Source: Candidatus Adlerbacteria bacterium GW2011_GWA1_54_10 (GTDB taxonomy: Bacteria; Patescibacteriota; Minisyncoccia; Phycocordibacterales; SBAW01). Taken from it: a DNA stretch of 64,000 nucleotides. A program made the position numbers and the translations under genes. Each line of letters begins with the position of its first letter. Position 1 is the stretch's first letter. The DNA is taken from positions 483-64,482 of the forward strand of contig LCRO01000001.1 of assembly GCA_001004665.1 (NCBI GenBank), in the 5' to 3' direction. This document shows, piece after piece, positions 19,208 through 64,000 of the stretch. Below the pieces are notes generated by a model. It searched no databases. It was not told the DNA's origin and was given only the letters and a program-made list of their open reading frames with translations.

Positions 19208-19279
19208 GCTCCCGTGGTGAAATGGATATCACGCGACGCTTCGGACGTCGAATTTCGGGTTCGAGTCCTGACGGGAGCG
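19208..19279 (+). tRNA. tRNA-Arg (anticodon UCG).
   Basis: Acceptor gctcccg/cgggagc, D-stem gtga/tcac, anticodon stem cgacg/cgtcg with loop cttcgga, T-arm tcggg-ttcgagt-cctga. Folded by hand. Confidence 0.55.
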
Positions 19280-19310
19280 CAGGAATGGGATATAATTATT
19301 TTTAGAAATT

Positions 19311-19381
19311 GCGGCCATGGTTAAGTGGTATAATGCGTCCTTGCCAAGGACGAGTTGGGAGTTCGATTCTCCCTGGCCGCA
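19311..19381 (+). tRNA. tRNA-Gly (anticodon GCC).
   Basis: Acceptor gcggcca/tggccgc, anticodon arm cgtcc-ttgccaa-ggacg, T-arm gggag-ttcgatt-ctccc. Confidence 0.7.
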
Positions 19382-19513
19382 CAAAAAGGCGATAAAAGAC
19401 ACCCAAATCGCTTGTTTCTGTGGAAAAGACTGTGAAGATGTGCATAAAGGACATTTTTATGTCCTTTATGGTTACTATAGTAACGATTTGTTTTCACGTG
19501 AACCGTATTATAT

Positions 19514-19909
19514 ATGTCCAAGACAGCTAAGCGTCAAACAGGCGATATTGGGGAAGGAGTAGCTTGCCACTGGCTAGAGAATAGGGGATATAAGGTAATC
19601 GAGCGCAATTATTTAAAGCCGTGGGGCGAGATAGATATAGTAGCGGAGAAAGCAAAAAAGCTCTATTTTGTGGAGGTAAAGTCAGTTTCACGTGAATCTT
19701 TTGCCAAATTGGGTTCACGTGAAATGTATCGGCCGGAGGAAAATGTTCATCCATCGAAGCTCAAAAGGCTCCATCGAGCGGTCCAGACCTATTTACTGGA
19801 TAGGAAAGTGCCAGAAAATAGGCCCTGGCAGATAGATGTTGTCTGTGTGTACTTAAACTTTGAGGACCGTAAGGCCCGCGTGGAGGTTTTGGAGAATGTG
19901 ATCCTGTAG
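19514..19909 (+). CDS. yraN: YraN/UPF0102-family endonuclease (restriction-endonuclease-like fold).
   Basis: GDIGEGVACHWLENRGYKVIERNY ... GEIDIVAEK ... YFVEVK pattern. 131 aa. Confidence 0.75.
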   Translation: MSKTAKRQTGDIGEGVACHWLENRGYKVIERNYLKPWGEIDIVAEKAKKLYFVEVKSVSRESFAKLGSREMYRPEENVHPSKLKRLHRAVQTYLLDRKVPENRPWQIDVVCVYLNFEDRKARVEVLENVIL

Positions 19910-19949
19910 CCTAAAGGACATCTAAAGGACATATGATAGAGTGTGCGAA

Positions 19950-20020
19950 CGGGCTGTAGTACACCGGTAGTATGCGTGCTTTGGGAGCACGAGAACTGGG
20001 TTCGATTCCCAGCAGCCCGA
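19950..20020 (+). tRNA. tRNA-Pro (anticodon UGG).
   Basis: Acceptor cgggctg/cagcccg, anticodon arm cgtgc-tttggga-gcacg, T-arm ctggg-ttcgatt-cccag. The D-arm pairing is imperfect in my hand fold. Confidence 0.55.
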
Positions 20021-20023
20021 ATT

Positions 20024-21163
20024 TTACCGCCCGTCGAGGGCGGAGATGAGTTGTGCAGTAAGGCCGGGGACGACCGTGGCGTTAAAAAGCGCAGCTTTTG
20101 CCGCAAGATCGCCGGAGAGAAGCCCTTTTATACCCCCGTGTCCCGCGCTTTTCAGGCTCTCATCAATGTGGGAGAGAGTTATGGCGCGCAGATCGCGCTC
20201 GCCAGTAGAACCTTCAAGTATTGCGGTCGAAATTATCCCGCCGAGCCTGCCGCTTTTAAGTGGTACTGCGGCTCCGCCCGAAGAACCGCTTTGGGAGAGT
20301 ATTGTGCCGCCTATGGAAAAAAGGTCAATGTCGTCCGCCGTGCCCTCGAAGGAATAAAGGCGGGTTAGATAGGCGAGCGCCGAGCTTGCATAAAGGTTGG
20401 TTGCTATCGTCTCGCCGGAAAGAAATCCGGCCGGATAGGCGGCAAGAAGTATTTGTTCGCCAAGCGTCCGCTCGCCTATGTCAGGCTCAAGAGCAGGGAA
20501 GTGGGAAGGCAGGGGATTTTTGGGGTTATACGGGCCGGTAATAAGCAAAAATGCATAATCCCTCTCGCCCGTGCCGAGGGCCCGCTGCTCTGCAATTTGG
20601 GGGGCGTTCTCCGCCACCCATGTAGGCGGGAGATAAAGCAGGGCGGCGCGGTATTGCGGCTCGGCTGGGCTCCCAGCGCGCACGATGCAGTCAATATTAC
20701 CGGGCATGCCGTAGTCGCGCAAAAGGAAATATTGCGCGACGTGTGCGGCTGTCAAAATTACGCCGCGGCTGTCCACGATAACGCCGCTGCCGGAAATGGG
20801 GTTGAGATAGCCGCCGCGCAGTGTGGTGCAGACAATATTTATCAGCGCCGCGCGCGTTTCGGTATTTAACTGTGAGAACGACTTCGCGGGCGCGTCGGCA
20901 GGCTCCAGCGGTTCCGGGATTTTCGCCGCGGGAGTGACAGAAGGCAACTCCTCGCCCGCTTGCGGAGAGGTGTTGCCTTGAGGGGCTGTAAGTTGCGGCT
21001 CCGGCTCTTGCATGGTTACTCGCGTTGTCGTCGCTATATCCTGCGTCGGCGCTGGAGCTTGGGTCACCACCTGCGGTGCCGCGCCAAAAAGCGTAGCAAT
21101 TGCAACAATCACTACGGCAAAAAACCTTGCCACGGCGTCAATTAATCCGTAGATAAATTCCAT
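20024..21163 (-). CDS. Secreted trypsin-like (S1 family) serine protease.
   Basis: N-terminal TM/signal VVIVAIATLFGAAPQ. His motif GVILTAAHVAQ. Ser motif GSSGGAAV. 379 aa. Confidence 0.7.
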   Translation of the reverse strand: MEFIYGLIDAVARFFAVVIVAIATLFGAAPQVVTQAPAPTQDIATTTRVTMQEPEPQLTAPQGNTSPQAGEELPSVTPAAKIPEPLEPADAPAKSFSQLNTETRAALINIVCTTLRGGYLNPISGSGVIVDSRGVILTAAHVAQYFLLRDYGMPGNIDCIVRAGSPAEPQYRAALLYLPPTWVAENAPQIAEQRALGTGERDYAFLLITGPYNPKNPLPSHFPALEPDIGERTLGEQILLAAYPAGFLSGETIATNLYASSALAYLTRLYSFEGTADDIDLFSIGGTILSQSGSSGGAAVPLKSGRLGGIISTAILEGSTGERDLRAITLSHIDESLKSAGHGGIKGLLSGDLAAKAALFNATVVPGLTAQLISALDGR

Positions 21164-21250
21164 GATTAGAAGTATTATACTAAATTGAGTTTTTCCGCCC
21201 TAGCGGACTAGCGGGCTTGCCCGCCGAAGTCACGCTATGGCGGGACGAAG

Positions 21251-21321
21251 GCGGGATTAGTTTAGTGGCAAAACGACAGTTTTCCAAACTGTAGTCGGGA
21301 GTTCGATTCTCCCATCCCGCA
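21251..21321 (+). tRNA. tRNA-Gly (anticodon UCC).
   Basis: Acceptor gcgggat/atcccgc, anticodon arm acagt-tttccaa-actgt, T-arm gggag-ttcgatt-ctccc. Confidence 0.65.
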
Positions 21322-21408
21322 CACTTCGACTCGAGGACTCGCTCAGTGTAAACACTGAGCCATAGTAAAGTGGAGAAGTACCCCGAGTTCTATCGAGGGG
21401 CTCCTAAT

Positions 21409-55222: not shown

Positions 55223-55774
55223 ATGGAACTGATACAGCAAAAGCAAAAAAAGGCATTCGAAGCGCTCAAGAAGGGGTTTGAGTGGAAAAATGCCATGCAA
55301 ACGCCACGCATAGAAAGGGTAGTGGTTTCCGCGGGCATCGGCAAGTTTATGAAGGATAAGAAAAAAACGGAACTCATCGCCGACCGTCTGGCAAAGATAA
55401 CTGGACAAAAGGCGGTGCCTCGGGGCGCCAAAAAGTCCATAGCGAGCTATAAGACCCGCACCGGCGACACGGTAGGCTATCAGATAACTCTGCGCGGCAA
55501 AAGGATGCAGGACTTTCTTAACAGGCTTATCCATATAGCCTTGCCGCGCACCAAGGATTTCAAGGGCTTGCGATCCGCCGGCATAGACGAGATGGGCAAT
55601 TACACGCTCGGCATGCGCGAGCATGCCGTCTTCCCCGAGACCTCCGACGAGGAGCTGAAGGACGTCTTCGGCATCGGCGTAACGGTCGTAACTTCCGCCA
55701 AGGACAAAAAAATCGCCAAGGCCTACCTCCAACACCTCGGCTTCCCGTTCAAGAAGGACGTTTCGCAAAAATAA
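55223..55774 (+). CDS. rplE: 50S ribosomal protein L5 (last ribosomal gene in the window; rpsN/rpsH/rplF are not found downstream).
   Basis: 183 aa L5 signature. Confidence 0.92.
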   Translation: MELIQQKQKKAFEALKKGFEWKNAMQTPRIERVVVSAGIGKFMKDKKKTELIADRLAKITGQKAVPRGAKKSIASYKTRTGDTVGYQITLRGKRMQDFLNRLIHIALPRTKDFKGLRSAGIDEMGNYTLGMREHAVFPETSDEELKDVFGIGVTVVTSAKDKKIAKAYLQHLGFPFKKDVSQK

Positions 55775-55948
55775 CGTTATATATTGGCCTACAAGGATAT
55801 TTCCTTGGTCGGTCTCAAAACTTCATAATTGTTCCTGAGACGTTAAGTCTTGCCTATCGAGACGTAACCACTGGGGTACCATCGGAGGAAACTAATTCCA
55901 TATTTTGGGCTCACTCTCTGTTGATAGGCAGATGCCTTTCCTTAATTC

Positions 55949-57901
55949 GTGGTGGTACAATTTAGGTGTAGATTTCATACAACTATGCCTCCCCAACAAC
56001 CCAACCCTGTCCCTACTACTCCGGCTAGTCCACCTCAGTCTTTCACACCGTCCACTCCTCCCAAACATCATCATTCGTATTGGTTATTAATTGCCGCTGG
56101 TGTAGCAATTGCTATTTTGACGTATCTTGGAATAAGCCAAGTTACTTCCGCCCCGGTGTCTATCTTTGCTCTGTTTACTAATCCAGAAATGGGTGGATAT
56201 GCACTATTCCTGCTTCCTGCTGTAGTGGTTAGTCTTATATTGATTTTAATTAGCTGGCGATGGGGACGGAATATATACAGAAAGGAAAATAGACCGGTGC
56301 AGGGATTTTTCTTCGGCACGTCGCTGTATCTACTCCTCGTCTTTTTAGCGCTTGGAATTACAAATGTACTACTTGTTGGTTACGCACATACAGTGGCGGA
56401 TGATGTTTCCTTTGCAGTAGGATTGATATTCTCTATCTTTTTTATTACTTCCATACAGATTTTATACGTCGGTCTGCTTATCTGCATGGGGCTTCTTATT
56501 TACTCAACCCGCTCATCTCCAGAAGAACCATCTCAGGCACCTTCTCCATTAGCCATACAGTTTCGTTATGCGGTTATGGGGGTCATGATTATTTTTGCGC
56601 TCTATATATTTGGGCTTGCCGCACCGATTGCCACTGCTACCCACCAGCAATGGCTTTGTAATTTGGTATACAGCAGTCGAGCAAAAGCAGACTGTCTTCT
56701 TAACACTTCTGCTATCGCGGCCTCTGAGAATGCCGCTCAAAATTCGGGTAACTCAGGGACTTTTACTATTGTTAAGACTGACTACAAACAAATTAAAGAC
56801 CTCCACGAGGTAGGAGGAAAGTTGGCCTACGCATTTGAAAATAATGATGGCACTTCGGGGGTGGCATATGATGGCCAGGTGGTGAGTGGTGCTTATCAAA
56901 AAGTGGGTATTCTGCCGATTGCAGAGGTTGGAGGAAAACTCGCGTATGAGGCATACAAAGGCGATAAAGAAATTATCGTTTGGGACGGACAGGAGTTTGG
57001 GACATCTTATAACCGGGCAAGCCAACCAACTGATATAGGCGGCAAGCTCGCTTTTGTAGCGGAAATAGGAAAAAAATATTTTGTGGTGTACGACGGAAAA
57101 GAATATGGTAGAGAGGCCGACGGGGCGGGGAGACCCACGTCAATACAGGGGAAGCTTGCCTACGCTGCCGATACGAATATTAATGGCGGGCAATATGTAG
57201 TATTTGACGGAAAACAAGTGGGTGGCCGCTATGGCAGAGTCGAGTGGATAAAAGATGAGGATGGTCACTTGGTGTTTGAAGGGGTAAATGGAAATGGAAC
57301 CTTGCTCGTGGTCGACGGAAAAGAGTATGGCTTTGGATATGGGCAAATACAAAACCATGTTTTGATTGATGGGAAACTCGCCTTTTCTGCCCAAAAGGAT
57401 GGCAAGACAGTCATTGTCTATGAGGGCACAGAAATCGGCACAGGCTCCTCATATGAGGCTGGACCCTATAACATCAAAGGCCAACTTGCGTATATTGCTG
57501 CAAATCCCGACGGAACCTCCCAGCTTATGGTAGGAGGACAAGCGGTTGGGCCGGTTATGTCAGGAAGTGTCCGCAATGTGGATGTTTCAAAGGGCGGGAG
57601 AGTGGTTGTACAGATTGATGACGGTAGCAAGCAATGCAGAGGCGTAGTGCACGGTCCAATATATCTTGATGGGGAAAAAGTATATGAAGGCTGTAGCAGC
57701 AACCCATTCGGCTTTTTTGGAGAGAAATTATTGTTCTGGACACAAGAGGGCGGAGATAAGGCGTTGTGGTACGACGGTAAAAAAATTGGCCAAGGATTTT
57801 ACGGATATAACTACTTCGCAGTGGTGGATGGGAAGTTGGCTATCGCCGCCTTTGCTTCGGCAGGGCAAGGCGTTCAGTACTCCTTGCTTCTTGAACAGTA
57901 G
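55949..57901 (+). CDS. Polytopic membrane protein with a Pro-rich N-terminus, about 6 TM helices and a C-terminal array of about 40-aa tandem repeats (GGKLAY...DGKEYG..Y), resembling WG/KWG-type beta-propeller repeats.
   Basis: 650-aa ORF; a start at MPPQQPNPV (55985) is also possible. TM helices e.g. YWLLIAAGVAIAILTYLGI, GYALFLLPAVVVSLILILISW, LYLLLVFLALGITNVLLVGY. At least 8 repeats of the type IGGKLAFVAEIGKKYFVVYDGKEYGREADGAGRPTSIQGKLAYAAD. Confidence 0.6.
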   Translation: MVVQFRCRFHTTMPPQQPNPVPTTPASPPQSFTPSTPPKHHHSYWLLIAAGVAIAILTYLGISQVTSAPVSIFALFTNPEMGGYALFLLPAVVVSLILILISWRWGRNIYRKENRPVQGFFFGTSLYLLLVFLALGITNVLLVGYAHTVADDVSFAVGLIFSIFFITSIQILYVGLLICMGLLIYSTRSSPEEPSQAPSPLAIQFRYAVMGVMIIFALYIFGLAAPIATATHQQWLCNLVYSSRAKADCLLNTSAIAASENAAQNSGNSGTFTIVKTDYKQIKDLHEVGGKLAYAFENNDGTSGVAYDGQVVSGAYQKVGILPIAEVGGKLAYEAYKGDKEIIVWDGQEFGTSYNRASQPTDIGGKLAFVAEIGKKYFVVYDGKEYGREADGAGRPTSIQGKLAYAADTNINGGQYVVFDGKQVGGRYGRVEWIKDEDGHLVFEGVNGNGTLLVVDGKEYGFGYGQIQNHVLIDGKLAFSAQKDGKTVIVYEGTEIGTGSSYEAGPYNIKGQLAYIAANPDGTSQLMVGGQAVGPVMSGSVRNVDVSKGGRVVVQIDDGSKQCRGVVHGPIYLDGEKVYEGCSSNPFGFFGEKLLFWTQEGGDKALWYDGKKIGQGFYGYNYFAVVDGKLAIAAFASAGQGVQYSLLLEQ

Positions 57902-58219
57902 ATTATCCCCTAGGACGATTCCCTAGGCGTCTACAATCGTCTCAGAACGTTGGGAAGGGGTCAGTGTATGGTTTCCATTATCCCTGCATAGTTTTACTTC
58001 TAGGAGAGGAGGTATTACCATATCGGTACAACTGAATAAAAAGGGCCTAACCCCAATAGCTTAACTGTTGGGCAAGGCCGAAAATCATGAGGCATAGAAA
58101 ACCCGTCATTCAGGGCATGCCTCATGTTATAGGGGGAAACTCCTATAAGGCCGCAAGGCCTCCTGGTGGCGGGCTTTGTGTTTTCTCACCCACCAGAATT
58201 ACTGGAGTAAGAAACAAAA

Positions 58220-58822
58220 ATGGATGCGGTAAAAAAGTGGGTATTAGTTCCGGTTGCATATCTGGTCGGATTCTTAGTTTTATTAATCCTATTGGCCGTG
58301 CTTGGGGTATGGTTGGGTTTTCTTTGGGGACTACTTATAGTAAGTGCGGCTACCCTTGCTTGCGGAGTTTTTTTAATACCGAAGTTGCACCCAAATAAAG
58401 AGAGGAAGAACCTGATGGGCGGAGTGCTGACGCTGCTAGTGTCTATATGGGCAATAGTTGGTGTTGCAAACCTGGGAGCATGGATTATGACTCCTTCGGC
58501 TTCTACATCTGTAGTCCAATCACAGGAAGTTACTCCAGAAGCGAAAGCTGCCGCACAGGAGCAATTAAATAGAGTAATGTCTCTTGCTAAAAAAGCTAGA
58601 CTCATTACCACATATGAGTTTTCAGATAGTGCAGCAGTAGTTTATGCCGACACGGCTTGGTACATACAAACAGTGCAGTTCAAGAAAGATTTTCTTGCAA
58701 AAATAGGTACTCTCAAAAAACAAATCACAGGCTATCAGCATTTCGAGGTACGCGACGCCTACTCCAACGAGAAAGTTGCGGAGATTACATCTTTCGGTGG
58801 TTCGCTTGAAGTTTACAAATAG
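58220..58822 (+). CDS. Membrane protein (3-4 N-terminal TM helices plus a C-terminal soluble domain), hypothetical.
   Basis: 200-aa ORF. WVLVPVAYLVGFLVLLILLAVLGVWLGFLWGLLIVSAATLACGVFLI then GGVLTLLVSIWAIVGVANLGAWIM. No family recognised. Confidence 0.5.
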   Translation: MDAVKKWVLVPVAYLVGFLVLLILLAVLGVWLGFLWGLLIVSAATLACGVFLIPKLHPNKERKNLMGGVLTLLVSIWAIVGVANLGAWIMTPSASTSVVQSQEVTPEAKAAAQEQLNRVMSLAKKARLITTYEFSDSAAVVYADTAWYIQTVQFKKDFLAKIGTLKKQITGYQHFEVRDAYSNEKVAEITSFGGSLEVYK

Positions 58823-59243
58823 TATTCTTTACCCTGACTTACAGAATGTCTCTCTAGACGTCTAGAGACGTCTCAGAACGTTGGAAAGTAAGGGGTTTAT
58901 AGGTTTTATTGGCTGTGGATTACTCCATCGCTAGGACATAGGAACAGGACGGTCGTAAATACCCTCTAAAAAGACTTTGATTGAAGCCATTTTTATATGG
59001 TCATTTTTGACGTATTTCCATGTATATCTGTCCCTAGTTGGAAGTACATGAATGAAAACACCAGATAACTTTTTACAAACAGGTTTGACGAAAGCTAGAG
59101 TGTCAAAGTGTCCTCGCAGAAAGCAGAAATTAAAAATGAATCCCTGGTCGAGCTTGAATCTGAAAGAGCGTGGGAGCAACTTTTCTGCCTTTTACTTGGC
59201 ACGGATAAAACCGAAAAAACAAAGCCATTAAAAAGTAGTCTGA

Positions 59244-59441
59244 ATGACGATGTCAAACTTACACAAAATTGATCCTTGCCCCGGTTGCTGGAACCGACCC
59301 CATGATGACCTAGCTCTAAATTCAGTCTCCAGGTACGGACACGGTTATATATGCGGCGACTGCGGTCAAAAAGAGGCTATTGAGGGTGACTTCATTAGCA
59401 AACAAAATGAGTTCGTCAGAAACTTACTAGCTGGTAGATAA
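59244..59441 (+). CDS. Small zinc-ribbon protein (CxxC...YGHG...CGxC), paralog 1.
   Basis: 65 aa. CPGCWNRPHDDLALNSVSRYGHGYICGDCGQKE. The motif layout is shared with the adjacent ORF. Confidence 0.5.
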   Translation: MTMSNLHKIDPCPGCWNRPHDDLALNSVSRYGHGYICGDCGQKEAIEGDFISKQNEFVRNLLAGR

Positions 59442-59447
59442 AATCCT

Positions 59448-59705
59448 ATGCCAAAAATTACACCTACCGCTGTCCTAGAATTCCTTAAAGAAAATCCTGA
59501 CTTCTGGCGACAAAATCGCAACCGCTGTGCCGGATGTGATAGGTTGCTTGCAAAAGACAGAGTGAAGTGGATGTTGCGTAGTAGATATGGTCACGGTGAA
59601 CTCTGTGGCGCTTGCCGTTACAGAGATGCCCATTATGACTTCATCGGCATACGACGCAGTAAACCCGCTGGCGATAACGTCAATCCTTATGATGAAAAAG
59701 GATAG
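59448..59705 (+). CDS. Small zinc-ribbon protein (CxxC...YGHG...CGxC), paralog 2.
   Basis: 85 aa. CAGCDRLLAKDRVKWMLRSRYGHGELCGACRYRD. Tandem with paralog 1, separated by 6 nt. Confidence 0.5.
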   Translation: MPKITPTAVLEFLKENPDFWRQNRNRCAGCDRLLAKDRVKWMLRSRYGHGELCGACRYRDAHYDFIGIRRSKPAGDNVNPYDEKG

Positions 59706-60114
59706 GGCGTCGGGACGCAGATTCCCTGGCTTTCCCCATGAATGGGACGAAGAGTACGGGTTTACTCAATACCCCAATATGCTTACCGAATTTTGGGCCG
59801 ACTTGTCAGGGTCGGGCCAAAAAGTTCTGGACTTTATCATTCGGCAAACAATAGGCTGGGAAAAAGATGAGGACACAATAGCGCTGTCACAGTTCAGGAA
59901 TGGAATCCGGGGTAAGTGGAACAACCGGGGGACAGGGTTGTCGGGCTCCCAGGTCCGCAGAGCAATCAAGGAGCTTGAAAACGGTGGCTACATCACTGTT
60001 GAACGGAATCAGAATCGACCCTCCACATTTCGTCTGGTGTTTGACGATGAGTTAAAGGAGGGGGAGATAGAGGAGACAAAAGGGGAGGGGGAAGAAGAGC
60101 AACGACTCTTTTGA
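59689..60114 (+). CDS. Winged-helix DNA-binding protein, possibly a phage replisome-organiser / DnaD-N-like or regulator, with an acidic C-terminal tail.
   Basis: Internal Met of ORF 59587..60114, overlapping the end of paralog 2 by 17 nt. FTQYPNMLTEFWADLSGSGQKVLDFIIRQTIGWEKDEDTIALSQFRNGIRGKW...SGSQVRRAIKELENGGYITVER resembles the replisome-organiser N-terminal winged helix. Assignment is tentative. Confidence 0.4.
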   Translation: MMKKDRASGRRFPGFPHEWDEEYGFTQYPNMLTEFWADLSGSGQKVLDFIIRQTIGWEKDEDTIALSQFRNGIRGKWNNRGTGLSGSQVRRAIKELENGGYITVERNQNRPSTFRLVFDDELKEGEIEETKGEGEEEQRLF

Positions 60115-60441
60115 GTCAACTGTGTTCATTAAGGCCACAAACGTATTCATCTTGGCACTAGGGCTAAACAATATGAACGGCCATTTGTAGTCAAAATGGT
60201 ACCCACAATATATAAACAATAAATAATAATCAGAATATAATATACAGTTTTCCATTTTTCCAAAAATGGATAGCTAGTCCTTCTGAAAGGATTTCTGGAA
60301 GAGGAAAAAAGGGGAAATGAACGACTTTTTTCCGACTCCAGAAATCAGAAAAAGAAACTATTCCGGCCTATCCAAAATGACCATAGCCTTACCAACTATT
60401 TACAACTAACCTAAAGTATGGTAAAATATTAACAGCTAGTC

Positions 60442-60615
60442 ATGAACGACCCTGAAGCTTTACGAGATTACCTTATAGCAGACGAAATTCAGCGCATTCA
60501 AGCGCTGTCCCGAGAAGACCTTGTAAGAGAGCTGATTTCTCTGAGGTCGGAAAAGCTAGAAGGTGTCTCACTCGCAGACCTGCTGAAAGTTTGTCAGTCA
60601 AAAAATGGAACATGA
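60442..60615 (+). CDS. Small acidic helical protein (57 aa) immediately upstream of, and overlapping, the serine recombinase start; candidate recombination directionality factor or regulator.
   Basis: ATG-initiated ORF MNDPEALRDYLIADEIQRIQALSREDLVRELISLRSEKLEGVSLADLLKVCQSKNGT. Below the ORF-track size cut-off. No homology assignable. Confidence 0.25.
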   Translation: MNDPEALRDYLIADEIQRIQALSREDLVRELISLRSEKLEGVSLADLLKVCQSKNGT

Positions 60616-62335
60616 TTCTCCACAGCCAGTAAAAAAGAAGGAACGAGGCGCCGAGTATCTGCGTGTTAGTACAGAAGAACAAAATTCCGAGGGGCACTAC
60701 GGTCTCCAAGTCCAAGAAGAGCGCGTAAAGTCCTGGTGCGAATCGCAAGGATATGTGGTCGCCGAGGGGAATATCTACAAGGACGAAATATCCGGCGGAC
60801 TGCCAGTTGAAAAACGTCCCGGCCTCAGTGCATTGTTCGAGGCAGCTAAACGTGGGGAGTTTGATGTCGTGGTGGTGTACAAAACTGACCGCTTGGCTCG
60901 CAACCTCCGCATACTGGTAAACATCATCCATGAACTAGACAGCTTAGGTGTTGCCTTCCGCTCTGTTACGGAACCGTTTGACACCACTACTTCGTTCGGT
61001 AAAGCCAGCTTCAACTTAGTAGGCACTTTTGCTGAGTTGGAAAAGGAAATGATTCGGGAGAGGACGACCAACGGCCGGATAAAGGCAGCCAAGTCGGGAA
61101 AGTGGGTGGGCTCCACTGCCCCTTTCGGGTATGTGGTCAATAAGACCAGCCGTAGGCTGGATATAAATCTGCAAGAAGCCAAGATTGTGAAGCAGATATT
61201 TAAGTGGGCGGTAGACGACAAGCTCGCCGTCCATGAAATAGAGCGCCGATTGAACGCAATGAAGGTGCCGGCGCCGTGGTCGACCAAAATCAAAACCAAG
61301 GAGACACATAACATCTGGCGACCCTTTACCGTGCGGCGCGTGTTGGCCAACGAAACGCACACGGGTACCTTCTACTACCGCAAGTATAAAAAGCCGTTCA
61401 ACGGATTGACCAGCGTCACCGACCCAACCCGCCTCCGGCCTAAAGAGGACTGGATAGAGCAACATTGCGAGCCTATTATCACCGTGGAGATGTACGAGGC
61501 CGCCAAGCGCCAACTTACACACAACCGTGAGTTTGCTAAACGCAACTGCAAGCGTGAATATCTATTCTCCAAAATCATCTGGTGTAGCCAATGCAAGCAC
61601 AAGATGTTCGGGGGATTCCAGCCTGCTAGAGAACTGGGGGCTCATGAGGGTGGCCGCTACTACCACGGCACCTACCGCAAGGACGATGCCCTAGGCAAGA
61701 CAGCACGGTGCCAGTGGTGTCCTAACTACTCCGAGGCACGCCTGGAGCCCATTTGGGATTTTCTCAGAGATATATTGAAGAATCCGAAGAACATGACCCG
61801 ACCTTTGGAGAAATACATCTATAAGGAATCTGACCCTCTGCCGGTCAAGCAACGCCTTCACGATATTGCCCAGGAGCTGGATACCATACGTAAAAGACGC
61901 GATAGGGTGGACGACCTCTACGTCAGCGAACAAATAGACAAGCAAAAGTACAAATCCTATCAAGCGGAGTTTAAGCTCGACGAGCAGAGACTAAAGGATG
62001 AGGATGTCCGCCTCCGCCAAACCTTGTTGAGCAAAAAAGAGATTACCGACCGCCAGAAGGCGGTAGCCAAGGCATACGAGCAAATCAAAGATCGCTTGGA
62101 CAAAGTGTCCTACGAAGAAAAGGCGAAAATCGTCTCCTACTTTGTAGAGCGGGTAGTCCTCCACGCCAAAGACGACCATGTGGAGGTAGCCTTCAAATTC
62201 CCACTGGATGCCGAGACCAAGGAGGGCAAGTCCTTTCCGCTGGTGCATAAAATCCCTACCATCACGGAGAAGGAACGTCGGGCCACCCTTATGCAGTCGA
62301 ACCCTGAAATGTTTACGCCGAAGGTGCTGGTGTAG
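60605..62335 (+). CDS. Large serine recombinase (resolvase/invertase catalytic domain, recombinase domain, zinc-ribbon and coiled-coil); phage-integrase type.
   Basis: Catalytic N-terminus GAEYLRVSTEEQNSEGHYGLQVQ with nucleophile Ser. RPGLSALFEAAKRGEFDVVVVYKTDRLARNLR. Recombinase-domain motif TGTFYYRKY. Cys cluster CSQCKHKMFG...CQWCPNY. 576 aa. Confidence 0.85.
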   Translation: MEHDSPQPVKKKERGAEYLRVSTEEQNSEGHYGLQVQEERVKSWCESQGYVVAEGNIYKDEISGGLPVEKRPGLSALFEAAKRGEFDVVVVYKTDRLARNLRILVNIIHELDSLGVAFRSVTEPFDTTTSFGKASFNLVGTFAELEKEMIRERTTNGRIKAAKSGKWVGSTAPFGYVVNKTSRRLDINLQEAKIVKQIFKWAVDDKLAVHEIERRLNAMKVPAPWSTKIKTKETHNIWRPFTVRRVLANETHTGTFYYRKYKKPFNGLTSVTDPTRLRPKEDWIEQHCEPIITVEMYEAAKRQLTHNREFAKRNCKREYLFSKIIWCSQCKHKMFGGFQPARELGAHEGGRYYHGTYRKDDALGKTARCQWCPNYSEARLEPIWDFLRDILKNPKNMTRPLEKYIYKESDPLPVKQRLHDIAQELDTIRKRRDRVDDLYVSEQIDKQKYKSYQAEFKLDEQRLKDEDVRLRQTLLSKKEITDRQKAVAKAYEQIKDRLDKVSYEEKAKIVSYFVERVVLHAKDDHVEVAFKFPLDAETKEGKSFPLVHKIPTITEKERRATLMQSNPEMFTPKVLV

Positions 62336-62412
62336 CTACATAAAATGGCCTGTCAGGCCTTATCGCTTTTCCCCAGGGGAAGCACTACAATGTGGGTGCC
62401 TAAAGGCTCCTA

Positions 62413-64000
62413 ATGATTAAATACCTCTACATAAAGAACTTCCGCTCTATCAAGGAGCTAGAACTATTCCCCGAAAATCTATGCAGTCTGCTTGGGCCAA
62501 ATAGTGTTGGAAAGACCAATGTATTAAAGGCTCTGGACTTACTGCTTGGGGAATCGTGGGCAACGAAAGGAAAGATTTCGAGGGAACTTTTCAATGACCC
62601 CAACGAGCCAATAGAAATAGAGGCGACCTTTTCAACTCCCATAAAGTATTCGGACAATTACGGACGAGAGATTGTTGCTGAAGGAGTACAGCTCCGTATG
62701 ACTCTTAGGCCAGAGTTAACTTGCAAGGTTTCGACAACACCCGACGGAAAGTTTTTAAGTGAGGATTTTAAAAAGAAGTGCCACTTTATTTACATCCCTT
62801 CTCAAAGAGAACTATCCGACCAGATGAGGGTGACGGGGTGGACATTACTTGGCAAGCTAATGAAAGAGGTGCATGCAAATTATATTGCAGCATATGGTGG
62901 CGATGAGGAAAAATTAAAAGCAGAGTTGAAAGAAATAATTAAACCGGCCAAAGAGTTTATTGAGAAAGATTTCGATCCATCTGCCACCACCTTTAGTAAG
63001 TTTGTTGAAACATTCAAACGCAATTGTGTGCAGAACAGCGTTGGATTGGCAAACAAGTTTGAGCCCGAATTAAATATCTACAACCTCAACTGGTTTTATA
63101 AGACTCTGCAAATTCAAGTAACAGAGAAGAACGGTCAAGTATTTGATGCGGAGGACTTGGGAAGTGGTCTCCAAAATCTCATTCTCATATCAATATTCCA
63201 AACCTACGCCGAACTTATGGGAGGACGGGTAATATTTGGAATAGAAGAGCCGGAAATATATCTTTACCCTCAAGCTCAGCGAGCACTTTACGAAAGTTTT
63301 CAAGAGCTTTCCAAAAATGGCCAAATCTTTTATACCACTCATAATCCTAACTTTGTGAGTGCATTCAGGGCTCATGAAATTGAGATATTGCAAAAAGACG
63401 ATGAAAAAGGTACTTACGTTTTGGATAAAAACTCGGTTATTACGAAGGATTTCTTACAAGATACTCAATATAAGATTTATTCTCACTTCAATACCCATCG
63501 AAACGAAATATTTTTTGCAAAGAAAACACTTCTAGTTGAGGGGCCGTCCGACAAGATTCTTTGGGAAACACTATGCAAAGAAAAGTGGGGGATTGACCTC
63601 AATAGGTCTGGCATATCTATAATCGATTGTAGTGGTAAGGGTGGGGTTATTTACTTTACTGGAGTATGTAAACTACTAGGTTTGAATTACTTTTCCGTAT
63701 GGGATGGCGATGACGAGGCCCCGCATGAGCTACTTGCTGAGGCCCAGACATCCGGACGGGGTTTGGAAATTGAGGGCAACCTCGAAAAGTTCCTTAAATC
63801 CAATTATGCTGACCTTATTTTCAGTAAGGATGAGGCAAAGAAAATCCAGCAAGCTCATGAGTGGGCAGAAAAGACCACAGAATGGCCGGCGGCATTTGAG
63901 CCAGTCAAAATATTCCTTTCCGACCCAGTACCTGTGGTATCTGAAACACCAGTGGTGCCTGCTCAGCCTGTAGAACCAGACCCTCTGGACGATATATTTG
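62413..64000 (+). CDS. OLD-family ATP-dependent nuclease (N-terminal ABC-type ATPase plus C-terminal TOPRIM domain), GajA/PARIS-like anti-phage defence protein; 3'-truncated by the window edge.
   Basis: Translation is open from the ATG at 62413 to position 64000; it is missing from the ORF track because there is no stop. Walker A LLGPNSVGKTNVLKALDLLLG, ABC signature-like LGSGLQNLILISIF, Walker B/D-loop VIFGIEEPEIYLYP, TOPRIM KTLLVEGPSDKILWE...SVWDGDDEA. Confidence 0.8.
   Translation, partial: MIKYLYIKNFRSIKELELFPENLCSLLGPNSVGKTNVLKALDLLLGESWATKGKISRELFNDPNEPIEIEATFSTPIKYSDNYGREIVAEGVQLRMTLRPELTCKVSTTPDGKFLSEDFKKKCHFIYIPSQRELSDQMRVTGWTLLGKLMKEVHANYIAAYGGDEEKLKAELKEIIKPAKEFIEKDFDPSATTFSKFVETFKRNCVQNSVGLANKFEPELNIYNLNWFYKTLQIQVTEKNGQVFDAEDLGSGLQNLILISIFQTYAELMGGRVIFGIEEPEIYLYPQAQRALYESFQELSKNGQIFYTTHNPNFVSAFRAHEIEILQKDDEKGTYVLDKNSVITKDFLQDTQYKIYSHFNTHRNEIFFAKKTLLVEGPSDKILWETLCKEKWGIDLNRSGISIIDCSGKGGVIYFTGVCKLLGLNYFSVWDGDDEAPHELLAEAQTSGRGLEIEGNLEKFLKSNYADLIFSKDEAKKIQQAHEWAEKTTEWPAAFEPVKIFLSDPVPVVSETPVVPAQPVEPDPLDDIF

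What the first reader, a model, noticed from the sequence alone, without database searches (positions are those of the whole stretch)
62413..64000. OLD-family ATPase-TOPRIM nuclease (GajA / PARIS-like) at the window edge, missed by the ORF track
The open frame from 62413 to the window end has no stop, so it was omitted from the ORF list. It encodes at least 529 aa with an ABC/AAA_15-like ATPase (Walker A GPNSVGKTN, signature LGSGLQNL, Walker B IFGIEEPEIYLYP) fused to a TOPRIM domain (LLVEGPSDKIL ... WDGDDEA).

This is the architecture of OLD / Gabija GajA / fused PARIS AriAB anti-phage nucleases. A partner gene may lie just beyond the window: a UvrD-like GajB for Gabija, or none for class 1 OLD. 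A phage-defence gene riding on a serine-recombinase element in a CPR-like organism is worth noting.
Basis: partly seen in the sequence, partly recalled or inferred. Interest (0 to 1): 0.65.

Follow-up and report, generated by a model that had tools for sequence, protein, structure and literature searches.

The report
Single-gene OLD nuclease with SSB-like tail
The window edge holds a real, intact, single-gene (class 1-type) OLD ATPase-nuclease of a candidate-phyla-radiation bacterium, an ordinary member of a known probable anti-phage family, except that its subfamily ends in a conserved peptide matching the docking tip of bacterial SSB and the gene sits in foreign DNA inserted inside a ribosomal-protein operon.

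Summary
Contigs identical to the window show the gene ends 44 nt beyond the edge (543 aa). The next genes downstream are rpsZ and rpsH, not a helicase.

It is a class 1-type OLD nuclease:
- The best sequence and fold matches are Thermus scotoductus class 1 OLD (6p74) and PADLOC 'Old'.
- It has no GajB, reverse transcriptase or AriB partner.
- Its Toprim domain has no class 2 insert.
- The catalytic residues are invariant across homologues.

Gabija and PARIS are rejected.

The host is Candidatus Adlerbacteria. The gene is the last in a low-GC insert of about 8.5 kb between rplE and rpsZ, next to a large serine recombinase. The att sites are unresolved and the insert looks composite.

- The true C-terminus, cut by the window, is a disordered acidic linker ending NPDDIPF. 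This is the hallmark tip of bacterial SSB. It is conserved in 74 of 121 subfamily members and recurs in distant OLD lineages, but is absent from P2 Old, YbjD and Ts OLD.
- Four of six contexts of this subfamily lie inside restriction-modification operons.

Defence function is inferred, not shown.

The parts
62413..64000 (+). OLD-family nuclease gene, residues 1-529 of 543. The gene continues to about 64044 (including the stop) beyond the window.
   Evidence: L001 11809-13440 equals window 62413-64044; L001 is identical to the window over its last 13 kb.
62413..63447 (+). ABC-type ATPase region (res 1-~345). Walker A G28-T35 at 62494-62517. Signature-like LGSGLQN at 63157-63177. Walker B IFGIEEPE at 63232-63255. 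D-loop position Y285. H-loop H310 at 63340-63342.
   Evidence: AAA_15 / AAA_21 / SMC_N hits. K34, E278-E281, Y285 and H310 are invariant in 32 homologues. Residue mapping to Ts OLD K34/E276/H283/H310 from the alignment and PMC7049728.
62812..63036 (+). Helical insert in the ATPase (res ~134-208), in the position of the Ts OLD dimerisation domain.
   Evidence: AF2 helices 134-138, 145-160, 165-174, 179-184 and 194-208. Ts OLD architecture from PMC7049728. The correspondence is inferred.
63511..63927 (+). Toprim nuclease domain (res 367-~505). E376 at 63538-63540; D380; D431-G-D433 at 63703-63711; N456-L-E458 at 63778-63786; K477 at 63841-63843.
   Evidence: PF20469 hit at res 367-433, 2.9e-17. 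E376, D431, D433, E458 and K477 invariant, D380 >90%. AF2 shows beta1-alpha1-beta2-alpha2-beta3-alpha3-beta4 with no insert between alpha3 (439-446) and beta4 (450-453). The metal B and Lys assignments are inferred.
63922..64000 (+). Start of the disordered acidic C-terminal tail (res 504-543). Only the first pseudo-tip DPLDDIF (63979-63999) is inside the window. The conserved tip NPDDIPF lies 20-41 nt beyond the edge.
   Evidence: full sequence; pLDDT <50 for 508-529; conservation.
60605..62335 (+). Large serine recombinase (576 aa), immediately upstream and co-oriented.
   Evidence: Resolvase 1.7e-38 + Recombinase 4.7e-16. phrog_95 integrase 2.4e-103.
59587..60114 (+). Lambda O-like replication-initiator / wHTH protein (175 aa).
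   Evidence: Phage_rep_O 1.3e-8. phrog_678 1.5e-12.
55775..64000 (+). Low-GC insert between rplE (ends 55774) and rpsZ (starts about 64332, outside the window). It holds a 638-aa ORF, LOOT RNA, a 200-aa ORF, small ORFs, the RepO-like gene, the recombinase and OLD.
   Evidence: Gene order. rpsZ found intact at L001 13728-13913. GC 38-50% vs 52-61% in the flanks.

Best explanation
The frame encodes a complete, catalytically competent, single-gene (class 1-type) OLD-family enzyme. It has an N-terminal ABC ATPase with an inserted helical (dimerisation-type) segment, a C-terminal two-metal Toprim nuclease, and a disordered acidic tail ending in an SSB-like tip (NPDDIPF).

Most likely mechanism, by analogy with the studied class 1 OLDs: the protein sits as an autoinhibited oligomer. 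Its ABC ATPase senses aberrant nucleic-acid structures made by an invading phage or plasmid, such as replication-origin ssDNA or unprocessed ends. ATP-dependent rearrangement then opens the Toprim site. That site cuts nucleic acid (tRNA anticodon stems as in P2 Old, or DNA nicks as in Vc OLD), blocking replication of the invader or aborting the infection.

The tail probably docks onto proteins that normally read the SSB C-terminus, or onto the enzyme's own basic surface. Either way it would tie the nuclease to replication or ssDNA sites, or keep it off until triggered.

The gene was acquired horizontally as the last gene of an insert carrying a large serine recombinase, between rplE and rpsZ of a Candidatus Adlerbacteria genome.

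Shown: domain architecture, class, intactness, conserved residues, tail conservation, genomic position, foreign composition. Inferred: defence role, trigger, substrate, tail function, recombinase-mediated mobility.
For: Family and class:
- Pfam AAA_15 5e-36 + OLD-like_TOPRIM 3e-17.
- PADLOC 'Old' 5.7e-50 is the top hit; the best GajA model scores 1.8e-35.
- PDB: phmmer 6p74 (Ts class 1 OLD) 7e-45, aligned 1-447 to 1-446, vs GajA 1e-10.
- AF2 model pLDDT 79.8. Foldseek top hit 6p74 at 1.2e-24 vs GajA 2.5e-16.
- No insert between Toprim alpha3 and beta4.
- P2 Old is a detectable relative: 23% identity over residues 7-433, E 2e-21.

Catalytic residues: K34, E278, H310, E376, D431, D433, E458 and K477 are invariant in 32 homologues. 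They map onto Ts K34/E276/H310/E377/D431/D433.

Single gene: upstream is the recombinase; downstream are rpsZ and rpsH.

Defence-type neighbourhoods of close homologues: inside type I R-M operons, inside a type III R-M operon, next to a rolling-circle Rep.

Mechanistic precedents: P2 Old tRNase activated by DNA structures (PMC12445682; bioRxiv 10.64898/2026.07.10.737580). Vc OLD nickase blocking phage replication.

Tail: 74/121 members end [DE]-D-I-P-F, with P and F invariant. 18/150 diverse representatives carry it, including exact DDDIPF. The SSB tip DDDIPF is documented in PMC5872125 and PMC3632105.

Foreign origin: GC 38-46% vs 52-61% in the flanks.
Against: - No experiment exists on this protein or any close relative. 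The nearest characterised proteins are only about 23% identical (Foldseek 23% to Ts OLD; blastp 23% to P2 Old).
- The D-loop His that is essential in Ts OLD (H283) is an invariant Tyr here (Y285), so ATPase mechanics may differ.
- The metal B and catalytic-Lys assignments (N456/E458/K477) could not be confirmed by alignment to P2 Old.
- Studied class 1 OLDs differ in substrate (tRNA vs DNA), so the substrate here is open.
- E. coli YbjD does not need its Toprim domain for its phenotypes (abstract), and archaeal Cran1 is a non-defence OLD ATPase (abstract). Family membership therefore does not prove defence.
- This copy has no neighbouring defence genes.
- No close (>30% identity) copies are found in sequenced phages or plasmids.
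Confidence: 0.75

Rival explanations
1. It is GajA of a Gabija system (class 2 OLD), whose GajB helicase lies just beyond the window.
For: PADLOC GajA models hit at 1e-35 to 1e-21, and GajA structures are second-best in PDB searches. This is expected from shared family ancestry.
Against: The sequence beyond the window is known. After the stop come 287 nt of non-coding DNA and then rpsZ, rpsH and rplF; there is no UvrD/PcrA-like gene on either side. Ts class 1 OLD and PADLOC 'Old' score far better. The model lacks the class 2 Toprim insert.
Confidence: 0.02
2. It is a fused PARIS AriA-AriB (class 4 OLD) that senses phage anti-restriction proteins and cleaves tRNA.
For: The PADLOC AriA model hits at 5.4e-38, but only over the generic ATPase part, res 124-315. 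Four of six subfamily contexts are R-M operons, which would suit a sensor of anti-restriction.
Against: The Toprim is the OLD-like type (PF20469). No DUF4435/AriB-type hit appears even at E<=1. The whole length aligns to Ts class 1 OLD. The AriA hit does not extend beyond AAA_15-like positions.
Confidence: 0.04
3. It is not an immune gene. It serves the mobile insert itself or the cell, for example as an addiction or exclusion factor for the element, a replication or recombination accessory working with the RepO-like protein and SSB partners, or a Cran1-like cell-cycle ATPase.
For: It sits beside a recombinase and a replication-initiator-like gene. An SSB-type tail suggests contact with replication and repair proteins. 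Cran1 and YbjD show that OLD ATPases can have other or Toprim-independent roles. This copy has no flanking defence genes.
Against: Close homologues are mostly embedded in R-M operons, which is a defence context. The full nuclease catalytic set is invariant. The family is patchily distributed across unrelated phyla at 50-70% identity, as is typical of defence genes. The recombinases near two OLD copies are unrelated, at 24% identity.
Confidence: 0.15
4. It is a RecF/SbcC/SMC-type repair ATPase with no real Toprim domain.
For: Weak N-terminal hits to SMC_N (1.2e-8, below the gathering score) and RecF (32 bits vs a cutoff of 172).
Against: Those hits cover only the first ~60-75 residues (the P-loop strand) and fail their cutoffs. 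The Toprim hit is above the gathering score, with invariant E and DxD.
Confidence: 0.01
5. It is a decaying relic, a pseudogene or inactive passenger of an old insertion.
For: The insert is fixed and clonal in the population and no excised form was found. The neighbouring RepO-like gene is a short fragment-like protein.
Against: The ORF is a full-length 543 aa with every conserved residue and the conserved terminal motif intact. It is identical on 23 contigs.
Confidence: 0.03

Closest known systems
Thermus scotoductus OLD (PDB 6P74), the structural archetype of class 1 OLD nucleases
   Same: Same length class (543 vs ~528 aa). Colinear alignment of 1-447 with 1-446. Top fold match. Single gene. 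ABC ATPase with a helical insert plus a Toprim domain lacking the class 2 insert and C-terminal helical domain. K34, Walker B Glu, H310, E376/377 and D431/D433 sit at almost identical positions.
   Different: Only about 23% identical. The D-loop His (Ts H283) is an invariant Tyr (Y285). There are 25 residues between DxD and the downstream Glu, vs 47 in Ts. It carries a ~40-aa disordered acidic tail ending NPDDIPF, whereas the Ts model is ordered to residue 525. Ts OLD has no known biological target.
Phage P2 Old (class 1; abortive-infection tRNase against lambda)
   Same: Single-gene ATPase-Toprim on a mobile element. Detectable homology: 23% over residues 7-433, E 2e-21. It is the best available mechanistic model: a DNA-structure sensor that activates a Toprim nuclease.
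   Different: P2 Old is 586 aa, ends ...EDFIKWI with no SSB-like tip, and has Asp/His at Walker B and the D-loop. tRNA cleavage is not shown for this protein. The carrier here is a recombinase-bearing insert without virion genes, not a P2-like prophage.
Vibrio cholerae Vc OLD (class 1; DNA nickase that blocks ICP1 replication)
   Same: Bacterially encoded single-gene OLD on horizontally acquired DNA. Defence depends on the ATPase and nuclease residues.
   Different: Vc OLD co-localises with DarTG in a defence island. No sequence comparison was made here. No SSB-like tail is reported in that paper.
Gabija GajA (class 2 OLD)
   Same: Same two-domain family, giving second-tier sequence and fold matches.
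   Different: GajA requires the GajB helicase next door and has a helical insert in its Toprim domain. Both were tested here and are absent.
Bacterial SSB C-terminal tail (intrinsically disordered linker + acidic tip DDDIPF)
   Same: A disordered, acidic, low-complexity linker ending at the very C-terminus in D-D-I-P-F. The subfamily consensus is [DE]-D-I-P-F, and some distant OLDs end in exactly DDDIPF. The SSB tip is documented in PMC5872125 and PMC3632105.
   Different: It is attached to a nuclease, not to an OB-fold ssDNA binder. Binding to SSB-interacting proteins is untested. The host's own SSB could not be examined.
PrrC anticodon nuclease embedded in the EcoprrI type Ic R-M operon (own knowledge, not checked here)
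   Same: An ABC-type NTPase-nuclease inserted between R-M subunit genes. Four of six contexts of this OLD subfamily show that arrangement.
   Different: The nuclease domain is different. The Adlerbacteria copy itself has no R-M genes nearby.

Membership tests
OLD family (ATPase + Toprim nucleases) | N-terminal ABC/AAA_15-type ATPase with Walker A Lys, Walker B acidic residue and H-loop His | tested here: met
   AAA_15 125.5 bits vs cutoff 32.1. K34, E278 and H310 invariant and aligned to Ts K34/E276/H310.
OLD family (ATPase + Toprim nucleases) | C-terminal OLD-type Toprim domain with conserved Glu and DxD (metal A) | tested here: met
   PF20469 63.4 bits vs cutoff 23.2. E376, D431 and D433 invariant, equivalent to Ts E377/D431/D433.
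OLD family (ATPase + Toprim nucleases) | Metal B ligands and a catalytic Lys/Arg after Toprim beta4 | tested here: inconclusive
   D380 >90% conserved; E458 and K477 invariant, lying just after beta4. Alignment of this segment to P2 Old D541/E543/K550 is not significant. No coordinates were available to measure the geometry.
Class 1 OLD | Stand-alone gene: no UvrD/PcrA/Rep-like helicase, reverse transcriptase/ncRNA or separate Toprim partner adjacent | tested here: met
   Upstream is the serine recombinase; downstream are rpsZ, rpsH and rplF. No RT or helicase domains in the island ORFs.
Class 1 OLD | Toprim without the helical insert between alpha3 and beta4, and without the class 2 C-terminal helical domain | tested here: met
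   AF2: alpha3 at 439-446 is followed directly by beta4 at 450-453, with only three short helices after it. Definition from PMC7049728.
Class 1 OLD | Closest relatives are class 1 proteins | tested here: met
   6p74 7e-45 vs GajA 1e-10. Foldseek 1.2e-24 vs 2.5e-16. PADLOC 'Old' is the top hit.
Class 1 OLD | Homodimer via the helical domain inserted in the ATPase | not testable with these tools
   Helices at 134-208 occupy the corresponding position. The oligomeric state cannot be computed here.
Class 1 OLD | Metal-dependent nuclease and ATPase activity; anti-phage phenotype | not testable with these tools
   Needs biochemistry and phage challenge.
Class 2 OLD / Gabija GajA | UvrD-like GajB gene immediately downstream | tested here: not met
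Class 3 OLD / retron effector | Adjacent retron reverse transcriptase and msr/msd ncRNA; match to Eco8-type effector models | tested here: not met
   retron_eff_Eco8 41.7 bits vs cutoff 250. No RT in the insert. The only structured RNA is LOOT, 4 kb upstream.
Class 4 OLD / PARIS AriAB | AriB-type (DUF4435) Toprim, separate or fused | tested here: not met
   No such Pfam hit at E<=1. The AriA model matches only the generic ATPase segment 124-315.
SSB-Ct-type docking tail | Disordered linker ending at the extreme C-terminus in an acidic run + I/L-P-F | tested here: met
   ...GGGEDDINPDDIPF*. pLDDT <50. P and F invariant in 74 tip-bearing homologues.
SSB-Ct-type docking tail | Binds the SSB-tip pocket of SSB-interacting proteins | not testable with these tools
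   Needs peptide binding assays or complex modelling.
Integrative element mobilised by a large serine recombinase | Recombinase with resolvase catalytic domain + recombinase domain + Zn ribbon | tested here: met
Integrative element mobilised by a large serine recombinase | Definable attL/attR, an empty attB in relatives, or a circular attP form | tested here: inconclusive
   The candidate att repeat is not significant. No empty site was found in any relative. No viral-contig relatives. All population contigs carry the insert.

The most novel reading that the evidence does not exclude
A widespread set of single-gene OLD nucleases has borrowed the SSB C-terminal docking peptide ([DE]-D-I-P-F on a disordered acidic linker). 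These immune nucleases would then plug into the SSB interaction network. They could be recruited to replication forks or SSB-coated ssDNA of an invader, act as bait for phage proteins that hijack host SSB, or be held inactive by the tail folding back as a DNA mimic. This would be a previously undescribed targeting or regulation principle for OLD enzymes. Because it occurs in genome-reduced CPR bacteria and often inside R-M operons, it could explain how a one-gene system tells invader replication from the host's own.
Probability: 0.35. Interest if true: 0.7.

Novelty: new variant of a known kind. Interest (0 to 1): 0.45.

Why it matters
On its own, the gene is one more class 1 OLD nuclease. It is useful mainly for correcting a 'hypothetical protein' annotation and for recording a defence-type gene in a CPR bacterium.

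The added value is a concrete, cheap-to-test lead on an open question in the field: how single-gene OLD nucleases find or sense their targets. A conserved SSB-type tip is a ready-made handle for peptide pull-downs, tail-deletion mutants and complex modelling.

The repeated embedding of this subfamily in type I and III R-M operons suggests a two-layer arrangement like PrrC with EcoprrI.

Separately, the rplE-rpsZ junction of Adlerbacteria seems to tolerate varied foreign cargo inside the most conserved operon in bacteria. That matters for ribosomal-protein-based phylogenomics and binning of CPR genomes.

Tried and rejected
1. **Candidate attL/attR repeat in L001.** ACGTTATATATTGG vs ACGTGATATATTTTGG: a local alignment is no better than shuffles (127/1000 reach the score). 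Dropped.
2. **attR-like hit in L021 at ~4349.** It lies inside a coding sequence (DADIFCLQE, an EEP-type motif). Chance match.
3. **Empty rplE-rpsZ site.** The exact-L5 look-up and four relatives at 76-84% L5 identity all had inserts or a contig break. No empty site was found.
4. **Scan for the shared 30-nt left-end core.** Metagenome contigs returned only the L021 species; viral contigs returned nothing. The metagenome scan also missed this genome's own contig, so the negative is weak.
5. **Recombinase relatives in viral contigs.** None. The recombinases near two OLD copies are only 24% identical, so there is no evidence of co-travel.
6. **The 638-aa and 200-aa island proteins.** No Pfam, PHROG or PDB match. 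Homologues of the 638-aa protein sit in ordinary chromosomal contexts.
7. **LOOT RNA.** Not found near those homologues or in other OLD loci. The discovery paper's main text does not describe it.
8. **Aligning the C-terminal Toprim segment to P2 Old** to fix the metal B and Lys residues. Not significant.
9. **Host SSB for comparing tips.** Not in the window or in any fetched locus.
10. **The tail against PDB sequences.** Nothing. Literature searches linking the SSB tip to OLD or defence proteins found nothing.
11. **Strain polymorphism to look for selection.** The population is clonal.
12. **Genome-contig scan with the OLD protein.** It gave one distant locus only and did not return the source genome.
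Full report
**1. Observation**

Translating 62413..64000 (+) gives 529 codons with no stop. The ATG at 62413 is the first start after an in-frame TAA at 62401-62403. The frame is absent from the mechanical ORF list only because it runs off the window.

**2. What lies beyond the window**

The complete upstream gene (60605..62335) was looked up by exact protein sequence and is carried by more than 24 public contigs. Two of them (L001, L005) are base-for-base identical to the last 13 kb of the window, so L001 serves as its continuation (window coordinate = L001 coordinate + 50604).

The ORF ends 14 codons past the edge, at 543 aa. After the stop come 287 nt of non-coding DNA, then an intact 61-aa Zn-ribbon S14 gene (rpsZ), followed by rpsH, rplF, rplR, rpsE, rplO, secY, adk and map. 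No helicase, reverse transcriptase or other partner gene is present, and there is no frameshift. The exact 543-aa protein occurs on 23 contigs. NCBI labels it 'hypothetical protein' and UniRef 'AAA domain-containing protein', in Candidatus Adlerbacteria MAGs from the Rifle aquifer. The CPR guess was correct.

**3. Family and class**

- Pfam gives AAA_15 (5e-36) plus OLD-like_TOPRIM (3e-17), both above the gathering scores. SMC_N and RecF hits cover only the first ~60-75 residues and fail their cutoffs.
- PADLOC ranks its 'Old' model first (5.7e-50). GajA models come later (1.8e-35 at best), and AriA matches only the generic ATPase segment.
- Against solved structures, Thermus scotoductus class 1 OLD (6P74) aligns colinearly, residues 1-447 to 1-446, at 7e-45. 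GajA scores 1e-10.
- An AlphaFold2 model built on 32 homologues (pLDDT 79.8) retrieves 6P74 first (1.2e-24), eight orders of magnitude ahead of GajA.
- The literature defines class 1 as single genes lacking the class 2 Toprim insert and C-terminal helical domain. Class 2 has an adjacent UvrD-like helicase, class 3 sits in retron cassettes, and class 4 is the split AriA/AriB pair. In the model, Toprim alpha3 (439-446) is followed directly by beta4 (450-453) with only short helices after it.

All testable class 1 criteria are met. The criteria for classes 2, 3 and 4 were tested and not met.

**4. Catalytic residues**

In 32 homologues (54-74% identical), the following are invariant: K34, E278-E279-P280-E281, H310, E376, D431, D433, E458 and K477. 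D380 is >90% conserved. The alignment and the Ts OLD paper match these to Ts K34 (Walker A), E276 (Walker B), H310 (H-loop), E377/D431/D433 (metal A) and D381 (metal B).

There are two caveats:
- The D-loop His that Ts OLD needs (H283) is an invariant Tyr (Y285) here.
- The second metal B pair and the catalytic Lys/Arg (Ts S478/E480/R487; P2 D541/E543/K550) are assigned to N456/E458/K477 only from invariance and position. A direct alignment of that segment to P2 Old is not significant. The Ts OLD authors themselves report that sequence alignment fails in this region.

**5. A conserved SSB-like tail, cut off by the window**

The true C-terminus is ...SDPVPVVSETPVVPAQPVEPDPLDDIFGGGEDDINPDDIPF. 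The model has pLDDT <50 from residue 508.

Of 121 subfamily members, 67 end in an acidic residue plus [ILVMF]-P-F, and 48 of those end in exactly DIPF. With a slightly looser definition, 74 carry the tip. The terminal logo is [DE]-[EN]-I-N-P-[DE]-D-I-P-F with Pro-Phe invariant, sitting on linkers of variable sequence. Tip-bearing proteins have a median length of 530 aa, against 514 aa for those without it.

A full HMMER scan of 1.84 billion representatives found 373 clusters at E<=1e-30 and about 6,000 at E<=1e-10. Among the 150 best, mutually diverse representatives, 18 carry the tip, including distant proteins ending in exactly DDDIPF or EDDDIPF. Seven of eight of these distant tip-bearers best match the single-gene 'Old' model.

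DDDIPF is the documented, highly conserved C-terminal hexapeptide through which bacterial SSB binds its partner proteins (PMC5872125, PMC3632105). P2 Old and E. coli YbjD lack it, and the Ts OLD model is ordered to residue 525. Searches of the held literature found no paper linking this motif to OLD or to other defence proteins. That library is incomplete, so the novelty is provisional. The tail's function is inference only.

**6. Contexts of the subfamily**

Full-length homologues at 50-74% identity occur in Paceibacterota, Saganbacteria/WOR-1, Bathyarchaeia, Ignavibacteria and Flavobacterium. That patchy spread is typical of horizontally transferred genes. The six independent neighbourhoods examined were:

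| Copy | Context |
|---|---|
| P0015 | type I R-M: hsdR-fic-hsdM-OLD-Mrr-hsdS |
| P0017 | type I R-M: hsdS-hsdM-OLD-hsdS-KilA-N-hsdR |
| L019 | type I R-M: hsdM-hsdS-OLD-hsdR |
| L012 | type III R-M: mod-OLD-res, flanked by serine recombinase genes |
| P0004 | next to a rolling-circle Rep gene |
| this locus | alone, next to its recombinase |

None has a helicase or RT partner. The R-M embedding recalls PrrC in EcoprrI (my own knowledge). It supports a defence role for the subfamily, although the review literature describes class 1 genes as not lying near other defence genes. Sequenced phages and plasmids hold only distant (<30% identity) relatives, P2 old among them.

**7. The carrier**

The gene is the last in an insert of about 8.5 kb between rplE and rpsZ, two genes that are normally adjacent in the spc operon (established knowledge). 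GC is 38-50% in the insert, lowest in OLD itself, against 52-61% in the flanks.

The insert contains:
- a 638-aa ORF
- a LOOT RNA
- a 200-aa ORF and several small ORFs
- a lambda O-like wHTH protein
- a 576-aa large serine recombinase (phrog_95 integrase, 2e-103)
- the OLD gene

It has no virion genes. A strong hairpin with T-runs follows OLD, and a TTGCGC-17-TATATT promoter-like element precedes rpsZ (read by eye).

The att sites could not be established. The 638-aa gene has chromosomal homologues elsewhere in Patescibacteria, so the insert is probably composite. All population contigs are clonal, with zero differences in OLD. 'Riding on a serine-recombinase element' is therefore plausible but only partly shown.

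**8. Mechanism**

The best-supported model transfers what is known from class 1 OLDs:
- P2 Old is an autoinhibited tetramer. It is activated when its ABC ATPase recognises ssDNA hairpins at a phage origin or unprocessed DNA ends, and its Toprim domain then cuts tRNA anticodon stems.
- Vc OLD nicks DNA and blocks phage genome replication.

For the Adlerbacteria protein, the architecture, intact catalytic set and defence-type neighbourhoods of its relatives are shown. The trigger, substrate and role of the tail are inferred.

**9. Verdict**

The OLD-family call is right, and the protein is class 1-type, not Gabija or PARIS. As such it is a new member of a known family. The conserved SSB-type tip and the frequent R-M embedding make the subfamily a new variant worth a specialist's attention, so interest is moderate.

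Noticed in passing
window 55775-64000 and beyond (L001 5171-13727); relatives L021/L027, L026, L023, L020: The rplE-rpsZ junction, inside the normally contiguous spc ribosomal-protein operon, is occupied by different cargo in every Adlerbacteria-like lineage examined. Here it holds the 8.5-kb insert. In L021/L027 it holds 2.8 kb (Ser-hydrolase, an EEP-like ORF, a MerR/HTH_17 protein). In L026 it holds at least 3.3 kb (NYN, NTPase_I-T, small ORFs). In L023 an unknown ORF follows rplE. In L020 the contig breaks 2 nt after the rplE stop. No relative with rplE directly followed by rpsZ was found.
   Followed up: partly
window 55752-55829 (L001 5148-5225) vs L021 3565-3642; L026 4030-4063 and 6164-6197: A 78-nt block spanning the rplE 3' end and the start of the insert is 82% identical between two species whose flanking r-protein genes are about 69% identical in DNA. 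L026 has a 34-nt direct repeat of the rplE 3' end bracketing a 2.1-kb segment. A hairpin follows the rplE stop in L021 and L026, with compensatory changes between the two L026 copies; it is weak in this genome. This looks like a recombination or attachment hotspot but is not resolved.
   Followed up: partly
window 55757-55774: This genome's L5 has a 5-residue C-terminal extension (…FPFKKDVSQK*), where relatives end …FPFKK*, …KKS* or …K*. The ancestral stop position reads GAC here.
   Followed up: partly
window 58044-58161 (+): Full-length LOOT RNA (Rfam RF03000): 79.3 bits vs gathering score 46.4, all four stems supported. It lies in the gap between the 638-aa and 200-aa ORFs of the insert. 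It was not found in other OLD loci or next to homologues of the 638-aa gene. Function unknown.
   Followed up: partly
L001 13580-13611 and 13663-13691 (window-equivalent about 64184-64215 and 64267-64295, outside the window): A strong 13-bp hairpin with T-runs on both sides follows the OLD stop. A TTGCGC-17-TATATT promoter-like element sits 37 nt before rpsZ. Relatives L021 and L026 share a TTGCAC-17-TAGTAT element about 170 nt before rpsZ (read by eye). This suggests the operon is split into two transcription units at this junction, which would explain why insertions are tolerated there.
   Followed up: no
window 55985-57901 (+): A 638-aa ORF with a Pro-rich N-terminus and internal repeats of about 36-38 aa (DNA repeat families D1/D2). 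It has no Pfam, PHROG or PDB match. Homologues are chromosomal in other Patescibacteria, and distant ones carry PD40/WD40 and peptidoglycan-binding domains. It is probably a surface repeat protein rather than a mobile-element gene.
   Followed up: partly
window 63265-63267 (residue Y285): The ABC D-loop position, a His essential for ATP hydrolysis in Ts OLD (H283) and mutated in P2 Old (H306), is an invariant Tyr in this subfamily.
   Followed up: no
L012 5219-18123: In a Peribacteria MAG, the OLD homologue sits between the mod and res genes of a type III R-M system. The block is flanked by a truncated serine recombinase and a full 593-aa large serine recombinase. That recombinase is only 24% identical to the Adlerbacteria one.
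   Followed up: partly
window 19208-21322 (+): A cluster of four tRNA genes: Arg-TCG, Gly-GCC, Pro-TGG and Gly-TCC. Ordinary.
   Followed up: no
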